In this document: positions 39,318 through 53,699 of the stretch, piece by piece
Layout of the letters: each line of letters begins with the position of its first letter
Numbering within the stretch: position 1 is the stretch's first letter
Source of the DNA: Bifidobacteriaceae bacterium
GTDB lineage: Bacteria; Actinomycetota; Actinomycetes; Actinomycetales; WQXJ01
Assembly (NCBI GenBank): GCA_031272885.1
Contig: JAISSX010000059.1
Coordinates: 6,021 to 70,020 of the forward strand
DNA length: 64,000 bases
Reading direction: 5' to 3'
The notes under the pieces: model-generated
Told to the model about the DNA's origin: nothing
The model's input: only the letters and a program-made list of their open reading frames with translations
The model's database searches: none
Program-made: the position numbers and the translations under genes

Positions 39318-39335
39318 CGAGAGATCGATTACTCT
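39318..39335. promoter_or_regulatory. LacI-type operator (site 1) upstream of the LacI gene
   Basis: cGAGAGATCGATTACTCt. Same CG-centred 18-mer as the sites at 50062, 50139, 53607 and 53682. Confidence 0.6.
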
Positions 39336-39389
39336 TGTTTCTGTAACCCGTTCCCACCCGTTCTTTGCGCCCAAGATTCGGAGGCCCCG

Positions 39390-40403
39390 GTGGCAGCAAG
39401 AGGCAGTACCCGCCGGGTGACCATTCACGATGTCGCGGCCGCCGCCGGCGTTTCATCCGCCACTGCGTCGCGGGTAGTCAACGGCGTGCCCACCGTGGAC
39501 CCGGAACTGGCCCGCCGCGTCTACGAAGCCATCGAAGCCTCCGGCTACGTGCTCAACCCGACCGCCCGGGCGCTGCGCCGCAGCGTCACCAGTTCGTGGC
39601 GGGTCATCATCCCTGACCTGCAGAATCCCTTCTTCATCGCCGTGGTGTCATCCCTGGAGGAGGCCGCCGGGCGGCACGGCTATTCGATCGTCTTGTCCAA
39701 CTCCGATGAGCGCTTGGACCGCGAACGCGAAGCGATTGAGGCGGCCGTGGCCGAACGAGTGGCGGGCGTGGTATTGGCGGTGGTGTCCGAGATCAAGTCA
39801 GATATTTCCCCGCTCACCCGGGCCGGCATTCCGGTGGTGCTGGTTGACCGGCGCACCAAGGCGTTCGATGGCGATGCCGTGTTTGTGGACAACCGCCTGA
39901 CCGGCGTTATTGCGGCGCAACACTTGATTCAGCGGGGCCGGCGGCGGCTGGCCTGCATTGCCGGCCGGGTTGACGTGACCGCCACGGAAGACCGGCTGTC
40001 CGGCTTCCGCGAAACCCTGGAGGCGGCCGGCATCGGGCTGCCGGACGAATACGTCTGCCGGTCTGACCGGCGCGTGGAGTCCGGTCAAGAGTCGCTCCAA
40101 TCACTCATGTCGCTGCCTCAGCCGCCGGACGCCCTGTATGTCACCAACGAACCGCTGACGGCTGGCGTGTTCCAGGCCGCCCAACAGTTGGGCATCGCCA
40201 TTCCGGAAGACTTGGCGCTGGTGGGCACCGATGACAACGCCTGGATGCGCATGGTGCGCCCCCAGGTCACCACGGTGCTGCAGCCGGCCAAGCGGATCGG
40301 CTGGCTGGCCGGCGAAATGATCGCCGCCCGCGCCAGTGGCGGCACGGTGGCCGGCGGCCTGGTCACCCTGATGCCCACCCTCGAAGCCCGCGAATCCTCC
40401 TGA
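39390..40403 (+). CDS. LacI-family transcriptional regulator
   Basis: GTG start with GGAGG 6 nt upstream. VTIHDVAAAAGVSSATASRVVNG HTH plus a periplasmic-binding-protein-like sugar-binding fold. Confidence 0.9.
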   Translation: MAARGSTRRVTIHDVAAAAGVSSATASRVVNGVPTVDPELARRVYEAIEASGYVLNPTARALRRSVTSSWRVIIPDLQNPFFIAVVSSLEEAAGRHGYSIVLSNSDERLDREREAIEAAVAERVAGVVLAVVSEIKSDISPLTRAGIPVVLVDRRTKAFDGDAVFVDNRLTGVIAAQHLIQRGRRRLACIAGRVDVTATEDRLSGFRETLEAAGIGLPDEYVCRSDRRVESGQESLQSLMSLPQPPDALYVTNEPLTAGVFQAAQQLGIAIPEDLALVGTDDNAWMRMVRPQVTTVLQPAKRIGWLAGEMIAARASGGTVAGGLVTLMPTLEARESS

Positions 40404-40427
40404 CCCCCCGGTCGCCATCGGCCACCC

Positions 40428-40546
40428 ACCCTCTCGCGAGAGTACGGTTATGTAGGCCGGGCAAGATCACGCAACGCTGTGACCTGCGGAAACGTGCTTC
40501 ACTCTGAGCGAAACGCCTACACAACCGTACTTTCGCGAGGGGGGAT
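40428..40546. mobile_element. MITE-like palindromic element, family A, copy 2 (core inverted relative to copy 1)
   Basis: ccctctcgcgagagtacggttatgtagg ... cctacacaaccgtactttcgcgagggggg. Lies between the convergent LacI gene and the 1171-aa gene. Confidence 0.75.
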
Positions 40547-40559
40547 GGGATGGGGGCGG

Positions 40560-53400: not shown

Positions 53401-53515
53401 GGGTGGGGGGCATAGTGGGGGCGGCCTCGGCCGCCGTGCCGGCTATCACCAGGCCGGCAAAGGCGAGCGCGGCGGCGCCCGTGAGGGCCATAGCCTTGCG
53501 CATGTGAGTCTTCAT
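50420..53515 (-). CDS. Secreted multidomain DUF4185 (GH183-like) enzyme: signal peptide, DUF4185, CBM-like beta-sandwich, FIVAR-like helical repeats, FG-GAP/VCBS repeats
   Basis: SP MKTHMRKAMALTGAAALAFAGLVIAGTAAEA. IGGTDLGILWDAGNGTVLAAFGDTFN, WRSSSLLFSNDHDLTDGMTW, LYGGFLHPWSL..YFALSDWAKYSTFL. Repeated DIDAATQALEDAIAAL-type helices. At least 5 repeats of GD(L/W)N(A/G)DG..D(L/I)LA....G.LW.Y.G.G.G.F. Confidence 0.75.
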   Translation of the reverse strand: MKTHMRKAMALTGAAALAFAGLVIAGTAAEAAPTMPPTRAIMAGKMTGREAVTPTNNNTYGNIGGTDLGILWDAGNGTVLAAFGDTFNTSYQTGNWRSSSLLFSNDHDLTDGMTWYKALMNSATQSKEIIPCKQATCATGENSAIPTGGIAVANPDNPSQYRNFVGYMSNTGFGAAGYWGIQYSGIYYSDDYGDTWAASTMRWLNPNSNKFDYQPFQMINFAQKPGDQYVYMFGTGPGRHTPVAVARATQRDFYNMDQSKFEYWITDRWVTTTEDPQAADNATPVMGDFTNHGVGELGIGYDQYSGLWLSVHQDNDLDIVLQTAPEPTGPWSEPYILVTTTDHPQLYGGFLHPWSLGNQPDKYFALSDWAKYSTFLMRFTINKDGSVTRPNLIADPNLERQGSTVGGAWSTDAVSGVDSAGNISPYNRAYSGWKSVWMRLDGSGGQTGTVSMWQQVTLKPNTDYALWCWVRMNDETATVVPDAHLGVREVGGGAVIAQTSFSETTEAQGYIRQYIEFNSGSLTTVEVFLGGELSLTNPWLNIDTFGLIEKDPPTLDKTALEAAIADGASRTVSDYTTSSVGTFPADLAAAKVEDADLFTTQDDIDAATQALEDAIAALVLHGDAGALTAVLDFIDAQNLTGTYTAASIAALQTKVTAGRTVAAAEADKTQAQIDQALTDVQTAFAALVALPPAVDKTVLQSLVNSVDKLAANSSMYTAASWVPVATALATAKQVLAGSPTQAQVTAQINAIHQAVAGLKPAPASTTGQGTTPSTPTPSGPTARTYASFTLSPDLNGDGRGEILAIHGTSGELFGFEASASGGLTKQTTLVSGLLNQQAYGPGDWDGDGKADVVSVDAAGYMWLYSGTGKGSVGSKVEIGHGWSPFRVIPAGDLNADGANDLLAIDQSGKLWLYAGNGHGGFKGQPKQVGQGWVGLDLYAAGDLNADGHNDILAVLPDGTLWAYAGRGNGTFSVPKQVGRGWGTFELAAGADLNGDGRADIVGRNNATGDLYYYQGNGGGSFQAAKQIATGW

Positions 53516-53606
53516 GGATGCTTGTCTCCTACGTAGCTGGACTGCGTCGTTGCATGGTCTATGTGGGGCGGTGCGGTTGAGGGATGCCGCTGTCCGTACC
53601 GCATTT

Positions 53607-53624
53607 TGAGAGATCGATTTCCCA
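53607..53624. promoter_or_regulatory. LacI-type operator (site 4)
   Basis: TGAGAGATCGATTTCCCA, centred 100 nt upstream of the 53515 start. Confidence 0.55.
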
Positions 53625-53681
53625 ACTGGCCGAGCGTATGCCGTGGTAGTTGATGGTTGTTTCTTGTTACCGGCGGCCTTG

Positions 53682-53699
53682 CCAGTAATCGATTGCTCA
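53682..53699. promoter_or_regulatory. LacI-type operator (site 5)
   Basis: CCAGTAATCGATTGCTCA, 75 bp from site 4. Confidence 0.55.

What the first reader, a model, noticed from the sequence alone, without database searches (positions are those of the whole stretch)
39318..53699. LacI-controlled locus with two secreted DUF4185/GH183-like enzymes, an ABC importer, a cytoplasmic GH172 and an orphan 1171-aa protein: candidate D-arabinan (actinobacterial cell-wall) scavenging system
What the sequence shows: two exported proteins (48723..49994, a lipoprotein; 50420..53515, a 1031-aa multidomain protein) share a catalytic-looking domain. Its motifs are GGTDLG..WD.G.G..LAAFGDTFN, WRS(N/S)..L(F)...D.DLTDG(L/M)TW and LYGGF.HPWSL...YF..S.W..Y.TFL, which I recognise as DUF4185.

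The lipoprotein gene heads a minus-strand operon: SBP, two permeases, a DUF2961 protein and a 1171-aa protein. The last two lack signal peptides.

Established knowledge: DUF4185 is CAZy GH183 (endo-D-arabinanases acting on mycobacterial arabinogalactan/LAM). DUF2961 is GH172 (exo-alpha-D-arabinofuranosidase and alpha-D-fructofuranosidase / DFA-I synthase).

Inference: this is an extracellular endo-cleavage, oligosaccharide import and cytoplasmic exo-hydrolysis pathway for D-arabinofuranose polymers. The bacterium would be feeding on Mycobacteriales/Corynebacteriales cell walls. The CBM, FIVAR and FG-GAP appendages on the large enzyme fit binding to an insoluble cell-wall substrate. An L-arabinofuranoside locus sits in the same window (1..9400).
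Basis: partly seen in the sequence, partly recalled or inferred. Interest (0 to 1): 0.85.

Follow-up and report, generated by a model that had tools for sequence, protein, structure and literature searches.

The report
D-arabinan scavenging locus with uncharacterised glycosidase
This is a repressor-controlled gene cluster that lets a non-mycobacterial actinobacterium cut up, import and digest D-arabinan, the sugar polymer of mycobacterial-type cell walls; it matches a system described in 2023, but it also carries a large uncharacterised enzyme (DUF6259) that recurs in such clusters across several phyla.

Summary
Pfam finds DUF4185/GH183 in both exported proteins, DUF2961/GH172 in the cytoplasmic one, an ABC importer (SBP plus two permeases) and a LacI repressor.

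The GH172 is about 60% identical to ExoMA1, the exo-alpha-D-arabinofuranosidase of Microbacterium arabinogalactanolyticum. It keeps the Asn that excludes fructofuranose. Both GH183s match the endo-D-arabinanase EndoMA1 and keep D33, D51, E243 and R198. The 1031-aa enzyme also keeps EndoMA1's arabinan-binding CBM.

Five copies of an 18-bp palindrome (TGAGnnATCGATnnCTCA) lie only in the three promoter regions. This supports LacI control.

The locus is therefore a new member of the known Gram-positive D-arabinan utilisation locus. The window lacks GH116 (exo-beta-D-arabinofuranosidase) and the D-arabinose isomerase and kinase.

The "orphan" is not an orphan. It is two ConA-like domains fused to a DUF6259 module, a family with 1097 cluster representatives and no paper or structure. 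A confident model (pLDDT 93) has the beta-sandwich/TIM-barrel/beta-sandwich fold of retaining alpha-glycosidases GH129, GH36 and GH101, without sequence similarity to them.

In 24 of 30 non-redundant loci its close homologues sit next to GH172, GH183, the isomerase, the kinase or GH116. It is probably a new glycosidase family of D-arabinan catabolism. Its specificity is unresolved.

The parts
39318..39335 (.). Operator-like palindrome CGAGAGATCGATTACTCT, 55 nt upstream of lacI (probable autoregulation)
   Evidence: 2 mismatches to TGAGnnATCGATnnCTCA; sequence
39390..40403 (+). LacI-family repressor, 337 aa (HTH LacI plus Peripla_BP_1/3), convergent with the operon
   Evidence: LacI E 1e-11; Peripla_BP_3 E 5e-30. 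An orthologue (E 1e-142) lies directly upstream of the DUF6259-ABC-GH172 genes in L004/L010
40560..44075 (-). 1171-aa cytoplasmic protein: two ConA/LamG-like beta-sandwich domains fused to a DUF6259 module. NCBI calls it from ATG 44066, giving 1168 aa (MDR1825562.1)
43572..44063 (-). ConA-like domain 1 (aa ~5-168)
   Evidence: AF2 model m798c352e027d (mean pLDDT 67, domain cores 70-88). Foldseek: laminin LG pairs, GH43 beta-xylosidase C-terminal domain, DUF1349 structures 3O12 and 3MEP. Weak Pfam DUF1349 hit
42969..43430 (-). ConA-like domain 2 (aa ~216-369)
   Evidence: It is homologous to free-standing 724-825-aa ConA-repeat proteins encoded immediately upstream of DUF6259 genes in L001, L006 and L008
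40563..42845 (-). DUF6259 module (aa 411-1171): N-terminal beta-sandwich, (beta/alpha)8 barrel (nt 40929-42107), C-terminal beta-sandwich. Candidate nucleophile D846. Candidate acid/base E900 or E904. Conserved C817, C856, H861 and H863 cluster on the catalytic face
   Evidence: AF2 pLDDT 93.3, pTM 0.94; Foldseek to GH129, GH36 and GH101; conservation in a 33-sequence alignment; residues checked
44072..45163 (-). GH172 (DUF2961) exo-alpha-D-arabinofuranosidase, ExoMA1 type, 363 aa, cytoplasmic. E226 and E248 match the catalytic Glu pair by spacing. N256 is the Araf-versus-Fruf determinant
45219..46073 (-). ABC permease 2 (BPD_transp_1; 6 TM-like segments)
46073..47020 (-). ABC permease 1 (BPD_transp_1)
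47161..48630 (-). Solute-binding lipoprotein (SBP_bac_1/8) with a Thr/Asp/Gly-rich linker. Orthologues (E 1e-85 to 1e-118) recur in D-arabinan loci of Paenibacillus, Gaiellaceae and metagenomes
48723..49994 (-). GH183 (DUF4185) endo-D-arabinanase lipoprotein, 423 aa from GTG 49994. D117, D135, R292 and E345 (numbering of the 435-aa ORF) correspond to EndoMA1 D33, D51, R198 and E243
50062..50079 (.). Operator palindrome TGAGATATCGATTGCTCA (perfect match), between the promoter and the start of the operon
50139..50156 (.). Operator palindrome TGAGTAATCGATCTCTCA (perfect match), 2 nt downstream of the -10-like hexamer
50159..50188 (-). Promoter-like site TTGACA-18-TAGACT for the seven-gene operon (GH183, SBP, two permeases, GH172, ConA-DUF6259)
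   Evidence: 10 of 12 matches; the only such site in 14.7 kb
50230..50420 (-). Two strong hairpins directly after the stop of the 1031-aa gene. They include a 16-bp perfect inverted repeat and a (GGGGCCA)n tract. Probable terminator separating the two transcription units
   Evidence: MFE -111 kcal/mol, z -3.9
50420..53515 (-). Secreted 1031-aa GH183: catalytic propeller (nt 52382-53404; D67, D85, R239, E296), EndoMA1-type CBM (51875-52363), FIVAR region (~51116-51868), FG-GAP propeller (50423-51028)
53607..53624 (.). Operator palindrome TGAGAGATCGATTTCCCA upstream of the 1031-aa gene
   Evidence: sequence
53682..53699 (.). Operator palindrome CCAGTAATCGATTGCTCA, 2 nt downstream of TTGACA-N19-TACCCT. 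The promoter-operator geometry is nearly the same as at 50139-50188 (18-nt spacer there)

Best explanation
The region is a LacI-repressed regulon for scavenging D-arabinofuranose polymers (arabinogalactan or lipoarabinomannan-type D-arabinan). The host is an actinobacterium that NCBI labels Bifidobacteriaceae, a group not known to make this polymer.

**Proposed mechanism**
1. Two exported GH183 endo-alpha-D-arabinanases cut the alpha-1,5 backbone outside the cell. One is a membrane-tethered lipoprotein. The other is a 1031-aa enzyme with an EndoMA1-type arabinan-binding CBM, FIVAR repeats and an FG-GAP propeller.
2. A lipoprotein SBP and two permeases import the oligosaccharides. The ATPase is encoded elsewhere.
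3. In the cytoplasm an ExoMA1-type GH172 removes alpha-linked D-Araf.
4. The ConA-ConA-DUF6259 protein is a retaining TIM-barrel glycosidase of an uncharacterised family (candidate nucleophile D846; acid/base E900 or E904). I propose that it removes what GH172 cannot. In this genome the most likely target is the beta-1,2-D-Araf caps, the job done by GH116 ExoMA2 in Microbacterium. The alternative is a non-Araf decoration.
5. LacI binds TGAGnnATCGATnnCTCA palindromes placed just downstream of the -10 hexamers of both GH183 transcription units and upstream of its own gene. It is presumably released by D-arabinose or an arabino-oligosaccharide.

**Shown:** family memberships, conservation of catalytic residues, export signals, operator distribution, the fold of DUF6259 and its synteny.

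**Inferred:** substrates, the specificity of DUF6259, the inducer and the nutritional purpose.
For: **Family and residue evidence**
- Pfam hits lie far above their cut-offs.
- GH172 matches ExoMA1 at E 9e-138, about 60% identity. The GEGE...GTED Glu pair has the same 22-residue spacing as the Dg67 acid/base and nucleophile E242/E264. Asn256 corresponds to ExoMA1 Asn253, which excludes fructofuranose.
- Both GH183s match EndoMA1 with D33, D51, E243 and R198 conserved. The 1031-aa enzyme aligns through the CBM, with the aromatic clamp kept.
- Signal peptide or lipobox is present on the GH183s and the SBP, and absent from GH172 and DUF6259.

**Known system**
- The gene set and logic equal the characterised Microbacterium D-arabinan PUL, which is induced by D-Ara and mycobacterial cell wall (PMC10509167).

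**Regulation**
- The operator search gave 6 matches against 1.2 expected, with 0 of 100 shuffles reaching 6. Five of the six lie in the three promoter regions.
- Two sites sit 2 nt after -10-like hexamers.
- Two more sites lie between the orthologous LacI and the DUF6259 gene in L010.

**DUF6259**
- The model has pLDDT 93.3.
- Its best fold matches are retaining alpha-glycosidases: GH129 ZgGH129 and NagBb, GH36 FpGalNase and alpha-galactosidases, GH101 (E to 4e-24, TM to 0.68).
- D at the end of beta4 and E after beta5 are invariant in 33 sequences down to 23% identity.
- Synteny: 24 of 30 non-redundant loci with close homologues carry a D-arabinan gene within 10 kb. GH172 occurs in 20, GH183 in 16, a FucI-like isomerase in 11, an FGGY kinase in 12 and GH116 in 5. 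The hosts include Bifidobacteriaceae MAGs, Gaiellaceae, Chloroflexota, Paenibacillus and Cohnella (Clostridia MAGs fall in the next similarity band, 4 of 10).
[quoted passage not shown] The beta-1,2 cap is therefore the linkage left uncovered in this locus.
Against: - No enzyme here has been assayed.
- The 64-kb window lacks GH116, a D-arabinose isomerase, a kinase and an ABC ATPase. Catabolism must continue elsewhere in the genome, or not at all.
- GH116 and a cytoplasmic DUF6259 occur together in L007, L017, L023, L025, L034 and L064. DUF6259 is therefore not simply a GH116 substitute and may have a different specificity.
- Firmicute loci contain a second uncharacterised 672-aa protein that could equally be the missing activity there.
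- DUF6259's structural relatives act on alpha-D-galacto or alpha-D-gluco pyranosides, not on furanosides.
- Some Chloroflexota homologues carry Tat signals, so the family also works outside the cell in some organisms.
- lacI is convergent with the operon, and the operator-repressor pairing is inferred.
- The contig comes from a MAG.
Confidence: 0.75

Rival explanations
1. The DUF6259 protein is the functional analogue of GH116 ExoMA2. It would be a second, unrelated family of exo-beta-1,2-D-arabinofuranosidase that completes oligosaccharide breakdown in genomes or loci without GH116. This is a specific sub-hypothesis of the best explanation.
For: - The window's locus and L001, L004/L010, L006, L008 and the Paenibacillus and Cohnella loci have GH172 and/or GH183 plus DUF6259, but no GH116 within 10 kb.
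- Only 5 of 30 DUF6259-anchored loci have GH116, against 17 of 42 GH172-anchored metagenome loci.
- ExoMA1/Dg67-type GH172 already covers both alpha linkages.
- The Microbacterium system needs exactly two cytoplasmic exo-enzymes.
Against: - It co-occurs with GH116, with both proteins lacking signal peptides, in six loci.
- The GH116 depletion is modest and is measured only within +/-10 kb.
- Firmicute loci have another unknown 672-aa candidate.
- The fold relatives are alpha-pyranosidases.
Confidence: 0.3
2. DUF6259 removes a non-arabinofuranose decoration or cap from arabinan fragments, so that GH183, GH172 and GH116 can proceed. Candidates are alpha-D-GalN on branched Araf and alpha-Manp caps of ManLAM-type glycans. 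Another possibility is a particular branched alpha-Araf context.
For: - Its closest folds are alpha-GalNAc-ase, alpha-galactosaminidase, alpha-galactosidase and 3,6-anhydro-alpha-D-galactosidase.
- It coexists with a full GH183, GH172 and GH116 set in L017, L023, L025, L034 and L064.
- Tat-exported versions exist, which suits action on polymer outside the cell.
- The attached or adjacent ConA-like lectin domains suggest recognition of a larger glycan.
- That GalN and Man caps exist on mycobacterial arabinan comes from my own knowledge (Man caps are also stated).
Against: - There is no sequence similarity to GH129 or GH36.
- As far as I know, GalN decoration is restricted to slow-growing mycobacteria. 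The family, in contrast, is widespread in soil Chloroflexota and Paenibacillus.
- No amino-sugar or mannose catabolic genes were seen in the loci scanned.
Confidence: 0.3
3. The secreted GH183s serve mainly as weapons or lytic factors against mycolic-acid bacteria, with import as a by-product; or they remodel the producer's own wall. In either case the primary purpose would not be nutrient acquisition.
For: - GH183 enzymes are housekeeping wall-remodelling enzymes in mycobacteria. A T7SS-secreted GH183 is a proven inter-mycobacterial toxin (PMC13444075).
- The 1031-aa enzyme carries adhesion-type FIVAR and FG-GAP modules.
Against: - Both GH183 units share operators with an operon encoding an oligosaccharide importer and cytoplasmic exo-glycosidases.
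- Orthologous loci add a D-arabinose isomerase and kinase.
- There is no immunity-protein-like gene and no T7SS signal.
- The host is labelled Bifidobacteriaceae, whereas arabinogalactan is restricted to Mycobacteriales.
- Killing and feeding are not mutually exclusive.
Confidence: 0.1
4. The locus targets another furanoside, not D-arabinan. Candidates are alpha-D-fructofuranosides or DFA I, or D-Araf glycans of non-Mycobacteriales origin such as Pseudomonas pilin alpha-1,5-D-Araf.
For: - GH172 also contains alpha-D-fructofuranosidase/DFA I synthase (7V1V hit at E 1e-30).
- Dg67 and Dg79 degrade the alpha-1,5-D-Araf glycans of P. aeruginosa pili.
Against: - Asn256 occupies the position that blocks fructofuranose in ExoMA1.
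- Identity to ExoMA1 is about 60%, against a far weaker match to alphaFFase1.
- Two EndoMA1-like endo-arabinanases and an arabinan-binding CBM are present.
- A non-mycobacterial D-Araf source remains possible. It would change only the ecological reading, not the mechanism.
Confidence: 0.07

Closest known systems
D-arabinan utilisation locus (PUL) of Microbacterium arabinogalactanolyticum (Shimokawa et al. 2023, PMC10509167): GH183 EndoMA1 and EndoMA2, an ABC importer, GH172 ExoMA1, GH116 ExoMA2, an isomerase and a kinase
   Same: - Secreted GH183 endo-arabinanases: E 9e-75 and 1e-64 to EndoMA1, with catalytic D, D and E conserved. One of them carries the EndoMA1 CBM.
- An SBP_bac_1/8-type ABC importer.
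- A signal-less ExoMA1-type GH172 (about 60% identity).
- The same outside-cut, import, inside-trim logic.
   Different: - There is no GH116, isomerase or kinase in the window.
- It has two GH183 genes rather than four.
- It has an extra ConA-ConA-DUF6259 protein as the last gene of the operon.
- FIVAR and FG-GAP modules are added to one GH183.
- A LacI repressor with identifiable operators is present. No LacI is mentioned in the paper's main text (0 occurrences).
Dysgonomonas gadei PUL42 (Al-Jourani et al. 2023, PMC10115798; Ross et al. 2026 preprint)
   Same: It uses GH183 endo-arabinanases and GH172 exo-alpha-D-arabinofuranosidases. A fucose-isomerase-type enzyme is used for D-arabinose, as in the DUF6259 loci L006, L007 and L026-L031.
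   Different: It is a Bacteroidota (Gram-negative) PUL, a type the Microbacterium paper contrasts with the Gram-positive ABC-importer type. It has three specialised GH172 paralogues. The papers make no mention of DUF6259.
GH129 (NagBb alpha-N-acetylgalactosaminidase; ZgGH129 3,6-anhydro-alpha-D-galactosidase) and the related GH36, GH101 and GH31 retaining alpha-glycosidases
   Same: - The three-part architecture is shared: N-terminal beta-sandwich, (beta/alpha)8 barrel, C-terminal beta-sandwich. Foldseek E 4e-24 to 1e-15, TM up to 0.68.
- An invariant Asp lies at the end of beta4, and a Glu lies about 55 residues later, as expected for an Asp nucleophile with a Glu acid/base. The placement is my inference.
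- A weak profile hit links the N-terminal sandwiches (E 2e-5).
   Different: - Identity is 10-14%.
- There is no Pfam GH129 or Melibiase hit, even at E 10.
- hhalign against a GH36 sequence gives probability 0.2%.
- There is no PDB sequence hit for the catalytic part.
- A near-invariant Cys-Cys-His-His cluster lies on the catalytic face.
- The genomic context is D-arabinofuranose catabolism rather than galactoside or mucin catabolism.
GH116 subfamily 4 exo-beta-D-arabinofuranosidase (ExoMA2)
   Same: It takes the same place in the pathway: a signal-less second exo-enzyme encoded beside GH172 in D-arabinan loci.
   Different: The fold is unrelated: an (alpha/alpha)6 barrel against a TIM barrel. 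ExoMA2 is absent from the window. In six loci both proteins are present.

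Membership tests
GH183 (DUF4185) endo-alpha-D-arabinanase | Significant match to Pfam PF13810 / homology to a characterised GH183 | tested here: met
   323 and 249 bits against a cut-off of 39.5; EndoMA1 8HHV at E 9e-75 and 1e-64
GH183 (DUF4185) endo-alpha-D-arabinanase | Catalytic nucleophile D33, acid/base D51 and essential E243 (EndoMA1 numbering), plus substrate-holding R198 | tested here: met
   Residues defined. They align to D117, D135, E345 and R292 in the lipoprotein, and to D67, D85, E296 and R239 in the 1031-aa enzyme
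GH183 (DUF4185) endo-alpha-D-arabinanase | Endo-hydrolysis of alpha-1,5-D-arabinofuranan | not testable with these tools
   Needs an enzyme assay on AG, LAM or synthetic D-arabinan
GH172 (DUF2961) exo-alpha-D-arabinofuranosidase, ExoMA1/Dg67 clade | Significant match to PF11175 and close homology to a characterised alpha-D-Araf-ase | tested here: met
   293 bits against a cut-off of 27; ExoMA1 8IC8 at E 9e-138, about 60% identity over 349 aligned residues
GH172 (DUF2961) exo-alpha-D-arabinofuranosidase, ExoMA1/Dg67 clade | Catalytic Glu pair (acid/base and nucleophile about 22 residues apart) and Asn253 (ExoMA1), which excludes fructofuranose | tested here: met
   E226 and E248 lie in WWGEGE...GTGTEDY, with the same motifs and the same inter-motif spacing as in ExoMA1. 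N256 lies in GGAWNFD. The Glu assignment rests on spacing and motif, not on a structural superposition
Gram-positive D-arabinan utilisation locus (Microbacterium type) | Secreted GH183(s), an ABC oligosaccharide importer and a cytoplasmic GH172 in one cluster | tested here: met
   compared
Gram-positive D-arabinan utilisation locus (Microbacterium type) | GH116 subfamily-4 exo-beta-D-arabinofuranosidase in the cluster | tested here: not met
   No GH116 homologue in any ORF of at least 60 aa in the 64-kb window (Pfam)
Gram-positive D-arabinan utilisation locus (Microbacterium type) | D-arabinose isomerase and kinase in the cluster | tested here: not met
   No FucI-like or FGGY homologue in the window. 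Both are present in related DUF6259 loci L001, L006, L017, L026-L031 and L034
Gram-positive D-arabinan utilisation locus (Microbacterium type) | Induction by D-arabinose or mycobacterial cell wall | not testable with these tools
   Needs qRT-PCR or RNA-seq. Here there is only a repressor with operators
LacI-family repressor with cognate operators | N-terminal LacI HTH plus a periplasmic-binding-protein-like effector domain | tested here: met
LacI-family repressor with cognate operators | Palindromic 16-20-bp operators in the promoters of the regulated genes, more frequent than chance | tested here: met
   Five sites in three promoter regions; 6 matches against 1.2 expected; 0 of 100 shuffles reach 6. 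The sites are conserved in orthologous L010. Physical binding was not tested
Pfam DUF6259 (PF19773) | Match above the gathering score | tested here: met
   66-68 bits against a cut-off of 28.7; NCBI names the protein a DUF6259 domain-containing protein
GH129 / GH36 / GH101 (retaining alpha-glycosidases with a TIM barrel) | Sequence-level membership (Pfam or HMM match to the family) | tested here: not met
   Only DUF6259 is found at E<=10. There is no PDB sequence hit. The profile hits only the N-terminal sandwich of ZgGH129, at E 2e-5. hhalign against a GH36 sequence gives probability 0.2%
GH129 / GH36 / GH101 (retaining alpha-glycosidases with a TIM barrel) | Shared three-domain fold with acidic residues on barrel strands beta4 and beta5/6 | tested here: met
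   Foldseek E 4e-24 to 1e-15, TM 0.45-0.68. Invariant D846 lies at the end of beta4, with E900 and E904 after beta5. No residue-level superposition was available

The most novel reading that the evidence does not exclude
DUF6259 founds a new glycoside hydrolase family dedicated to D-arabinan catabolism. It would be a retaining TIM-barrel enzyme, distantly GH129-like, possibly with a Cys2His2 metal site beside the nucleophile. It would work with ConA-like lectin domains that are either fused to it or encoded next to it. In the unfused cases these domains may be co-exported with a Tat-signal-bearing catalytic subunit. It would cleave a linkage of mycobacterial-type arabinan for which only GH116 is known (beta-1,2-D-Araf), or for which no enzyme is known (a cap or decoration).
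Probability: 0.45. Interest if true: 0.75.

Novelty: new variant of a known kind. Interest (0 to 1): 0.6.

Why it matters
D-arabinan is the scaffold of the mycobacterial cell wall, the target of ethambutol, and part of the LAM antigen used in TB diagnostics. Enzymes that dissect it were unknown until 2023 and are now used as structural and analytical tools.

The locus extends the known Gram-positive D-arabinan system to a Bifidobacteriaceae-labelled MAG and supplies a repressor-operator pair for it.

More usefully, it flags DUF6259 as a conserved but unstudied component of such loci in Actinomycetota, Chloroflexota and Bacillota. Several of these hosts are cultured: Paenibacillus lautus, P. 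rhizosphaerae, P. montanisoli and Cohnella. If DUF6259 is a new D-arabinan-active glycosidase family, it would add a missing specificity to the toolbox for AG and LAM analysis. It would also show that recycling of mycolata cell walls is widespread in soil.

The hypothesis is directly testable with existing substrates.

Tried and rejected
1. **Orphan status of the 1171-aa protein: rejected.** The full-length word-indexed search found only 3 relatives. The C-terminal fragment found 17, and exhaustive HMMER found 1097 cluster representatives.
2. **Sequence route to a known GH family: no result.** There was no PDB hit. The profile gave only a weak N-terminal-domain hit. Pfam at E<=10 returned only DUF6259. 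hhalign against a GH36 sequence was negative.
3. **Simple 'DUF6259 replaces GH116' idea: weakened.** The two co-occur in six loci. In GH172-anchored metagenome loci, 17 of 42 had GH116, 2 of 42 had DUF6259, and one had both.
4. **Searches that returned nothing.** The look-up of encoding contigs found no record for P0001. The supplement search for Microbacterium gene names found nothing.
6. **Exact operator pattern in the other 58 loci.** It found only one unrelated hit. With mismatches allowed, the orthologous L010 has two well-placed sites.
7. **Literature.** No paper mentions DUF6259 or PF19773. Nothing newer describes additional D-arabinan enzyme families.
8. **Fructofuranoside/DFA reading of GH172: rejected** on the Asn determinant and on clade membership.

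Full report
**Provenance and composition.** The window has 59-71% G+C. The 1171-aa protein is identical to NCBI MDR1825562.1, named 'MAG: DUF6259 domain-containing protein [Bifidobacteriaceae bacterium]', from a 117.8-kb contig. The host is thus an actinobacterium outside the Mycobacteriales, to which arabinogalactan is restricted (PMC13444075).

**Observation.**
- LacI: 39390-40403 (+).
- On the minus strand, from 49994 down to 40560: a DUF4185/GH183 lipoprotein, an SBP, two permeases, a DUF2961/GH172 protein and a 1171-aa protein.
- Upstream, a separate 1031-aa protein (50420-53515) with DUF4185, FIVAR and FG-GAP.
- All scores are far above the curated cut-offs.
- Hydropathy and lipobox inspection agree with the predicted localisations. 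The two GH183s and the SBP are exported. GH172 and the 1171-aa protein are not.

**Closeness to characterised enzymes.**
- GH172 matches ExoMA1 of Microbacterium arabinogalactanolyticum (PDB 8IC8) at E 9e-138, about 60% identity end to end.
- It shares with ExoMA1 the WWGEGE and GTGTEDY motifs. Their two Glu residues (E226 and E248) are 22 residues apart. This is the spacing of the acid/base and nucleophile E242/E264, shown by covalent labelling in the same-clade enzyme Dg67.
- It has Asn256 at the position of ExoMA1 Asn253. [quoted passage not shown]
- The lipoprotein GH183 matches EndoMA1 (8HHV) at E 9e-75, about 49% identity over the aligned residues.
- The 1031-aa enzyme matches EndoMA1 at E 1e-64 over residues 38-547. 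This covers both the propeller and EndoMA1's C-terminal CBM, which binds arabinotetraose in the crystal.
- In both proteins the residues proven essential by mutagenesis (D33, D51, E243) and R198 are conserved. The CBM aromatic clamp is kept (F379->W; W468).

**Comparison with the known system.** Shimokawa et al. (PMC10509167) describe a Gram-positive D-arabinan PUL.
- Secreted GH183 endo-arabinanases depolymerise LAM and AG.
- An SBP_bac_8-type ABC transporter imports oligosaccharides.
- Signal-less GH172 (alpha) and GH116 (beta) exo-enzymes reduce them to D-arabinose, which an isomerase and a kinase then process.
- The genes are induced by D-arabinose and mycobacterial cell wall.

The locus is a new member of a known kind. 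The differences are as follows. Pfam scans of all other window genes and a phmmer scan of every ORF of at least 60 aa find no GH116, no FucI-like isomerase, no FGGY kinase and no ABC ATPase. In their place, the last gene of the operon is the 1171-aa protein.

**Regulation.** lacI is convergent with the operon, so gene order says nothing about control. Reading the three promoter regions showed a recurring palindrome.
- A search with TGAGnnATCGATnnCTCA (up to 3 mismatches) gives 6 matches in 64 kb, against 1.2 expected. None of 100 shuffles reaches 6.
- Five matches lie at 39318-35 (upstream of lacI), 50062-79 and 50139-56 (upstream of the operon), and 53607-24 and 53682-99 (upstream of the 1031-aa gene). 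The sixth is the weakest and lies inside a coding region.
- At both GH183 promoters one operator starts 2 nt after a -10-like hexamer, preceded by TTGACA at an 18-19-nt spacer. This is the classical position for repression.
- In L010, a related Bifidobacteriaceae MAG with a LacI orthologue (E 1e-142), two such sites lie exactly between LacI and the DUF6259-ABC-GH172 genes.
- Two strong hairpins after the 1031-aa gene separate the two transcription units.

**The 1171-aa protein.**
- It has no PDB sequence relative and no NCBIfam hit.
- Residues 1-399 form two ConA/LamG-like beta-sandwiches. The AF2 model is of moderate quality. Foldseek matches laminin LG pairs, the C-terminal domain of GH43 beta-xylosidases and DUF1349 structures. 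There is also a weak DUF1349 hit.
- Residues 411-1171 are a DUF6259 module.
- The family is sizeable: 1097 cluster representatives at E<=1e-3 and 111 at E<=1e-30. No paper in the library mentions it.
- With a 33-sequence alignment, AF2 gives a confident model (pLDDT 93.3, pTM 0.94): N-terminal beta-sandwich, (beta/alpha)8 barrel, C-terminal beta-sandwich.
- The best Foldseek matches are GH129 (ZgGH129, NagBb), GH36 (FpGalNase, alpha-galactosidases), GH101 and GH31. All are retaining alpha-glycosidases, at 9-14% identity.
- Sequence-level membership in those families fails.
- Invariant D846 ends barrel strand beta4. Invariant or near-invariant E904 and E900 follow beta5.
- Near-invariant C817, C856, H861 and H863 lie in loops on the same face. 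I read these as nucleophile, acid/base and a possible metal site. This is inference, because no coordinates or superposition were available.

**Genomic association of DUF6259.**
- Contexts of database homologues and of 50 GTDB loci were scanned with phmmer, using this locus's proteins and the isomerase, kinase and GH116 from related loci.
- Among 30 non-redundant loci with close homologues (E<=1e-130), 24 have a D-arabinan gene within 10 kb: GH172 in 20, GH183 in 16, a FucI-like isomerase in 11, an FGGY kinase in 12 and GH116 in 5. Four of the six exceptions are contigs under 12 kb.
- The carriers include Bifidobacteriaceae MAGs, Gaiellaceae, many Chloroflexota, and cultured Paenibacillus (sp. 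XY044, P. rhizosphaerae, P. lautus, P. montanisoli) and Cohnella. Clostridia MAGs fall in the intermediate band described next.
- In the intermediate band (E 1e-130 to 1e-45), 4 of 10 loci, the Clostridia MAGs, carry such genes. Of the 10 most distant loci (Hydrogenedentes, haloarchaea and others) only one does.
- The ConA-like part is a separate gene immediately upstream of DUF6259 in L001, L006 and L008, and is fused in the window and in L004. This indicates a functional unit.
- In those three split cases, and in several other Chloroflexota proteins, DUF6259 carries a twin-arginine signal. Most homologues, like the window's protein, have none.

[quoted passage not shown] In Microbacterium, GH172 plus GH116 suffice to finish the job. 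In this locus the uncovered linkage is therefore the beta-1,2 cap, which makes a GH116-analogous role attractive.

An unbiased sample weakens this reading. Of 42 GH172-anchored metagenome loci of at least 9 kb, 17 have GH116 and 2 have DUF6259, one of them with both. Six loci in all have both proteins, both without signal peptides. Firmicute loci also carry a second conserved, unannotated 672-aa protein.

I therefore commit only to 'a retaining glycosidase of D-arabinan oligosaccharide catabolism'. I split the specificity roughly evenly between a beta-D-arabinofuranosidase analogue and a decapping or debranching enzyme.

**Verdict.** As a D-arabinan locus it is a new member of a kind described in 2023. 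Three things make it a new variant of that kind:
- the DUF6259 component;
- the operator-defined regulon;
- the absence of GH116, isomerase and kinase from the window.

The most valuable output is a testable lead to a new glycoside hydrolase family, with cultured carriers available.

Noticed in passing
L029:14275-16293 (+), Paenibacillus lautus NRS-1281; also L021, L026, L027, L035, L098: A 672-aa protein with no Pfam and no PDB hit is conserved beside DUF6259, GH183 and GH172 in Firmicute D-arabinan loci. It is a second uncharacterised candidate enzyme of this pathway and is absent from the window.
   Followed up: partly
window 1-9400, and L004:2206-8422: A block of a BNR-repeat protein, an ABC importer and two GH51-type (Alpha-L-AF_C) genes. 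The same GH51 x2 plus ABC block lies directly beside LacI-DUF6259-ABC-GH172 in the related MAG locus L004/L010. No TGAGnnATCGATnnCTCA operator occurs near it in the window.
   Followed up: partly
L001:9551-14305; L006:7513-12406; L008:7816-12406: Where the ConA-repeat protein is a separate, signal-less gene, the adjacent DUF6259 carries a classic twin-arginine signal (for example NRRRFLQS...ADA). Where the two are fused, there is no signal. This raises the possibility of Tat 'hitch-hiker' co-export of the pair in Chloroflexota.
   Followed up: partly
window 50230-50420 (-): Two very stable hairpins follow the 1031-aa gene: a 16-bp perfect inverted repeat GAGAGGTCAATTCCG.../...CGGAATTGACCTCTC, and a (GGGGCCA)n G-rich tract. 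MFE is -111 kcal/mol, z -3.9. This is probably a U-tract-less terminator.
   Followed up: partly
window 56716-64000 (+): An open reading frame of more than 2428 aa runs off the window. It carries a papain-like Peptidase_C1 fragment, a lectin-like domain, LRRs and about 10 BACON domains, which suggests a giant surface protein.
   Followed up: no
window 37995-39287 (+): A HipA-family toxin kinase gene lies directly upstream of lacI. No HipB was looked for.
   Followed up: no
window 20562-23679 (-) and 34257-36227 (-): Malate synthase, isocitrate lyase and GTP-PEPCK are present. To my knowledge, glyoxylate shunt and gluconeogenesis genes are unusual for classical Bifidobacterium. The 'Bifidobacteriaceae' label may therefore cover a physiologically different lineage.
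   Followed up: no
L002:2912-7258: A 1448-aa protein fuses a distant DUF6259 module to a GH106-type (alpha-L-rhamnosidase) domain. Other branches of DUF6259 therefore sit in unrelated glycan contexts.
   Followed up: no
L007, L019, L021, L026-L032, L034, L064: Outside the Actinomycetota, DUF6259 is usually adjacent to a divergent GH172 (E about 1e-37 to 1e-44 to the window's enzyme) rather than to the ExoMA1 type. Several loci have both GH172 types.
   Followed up: no
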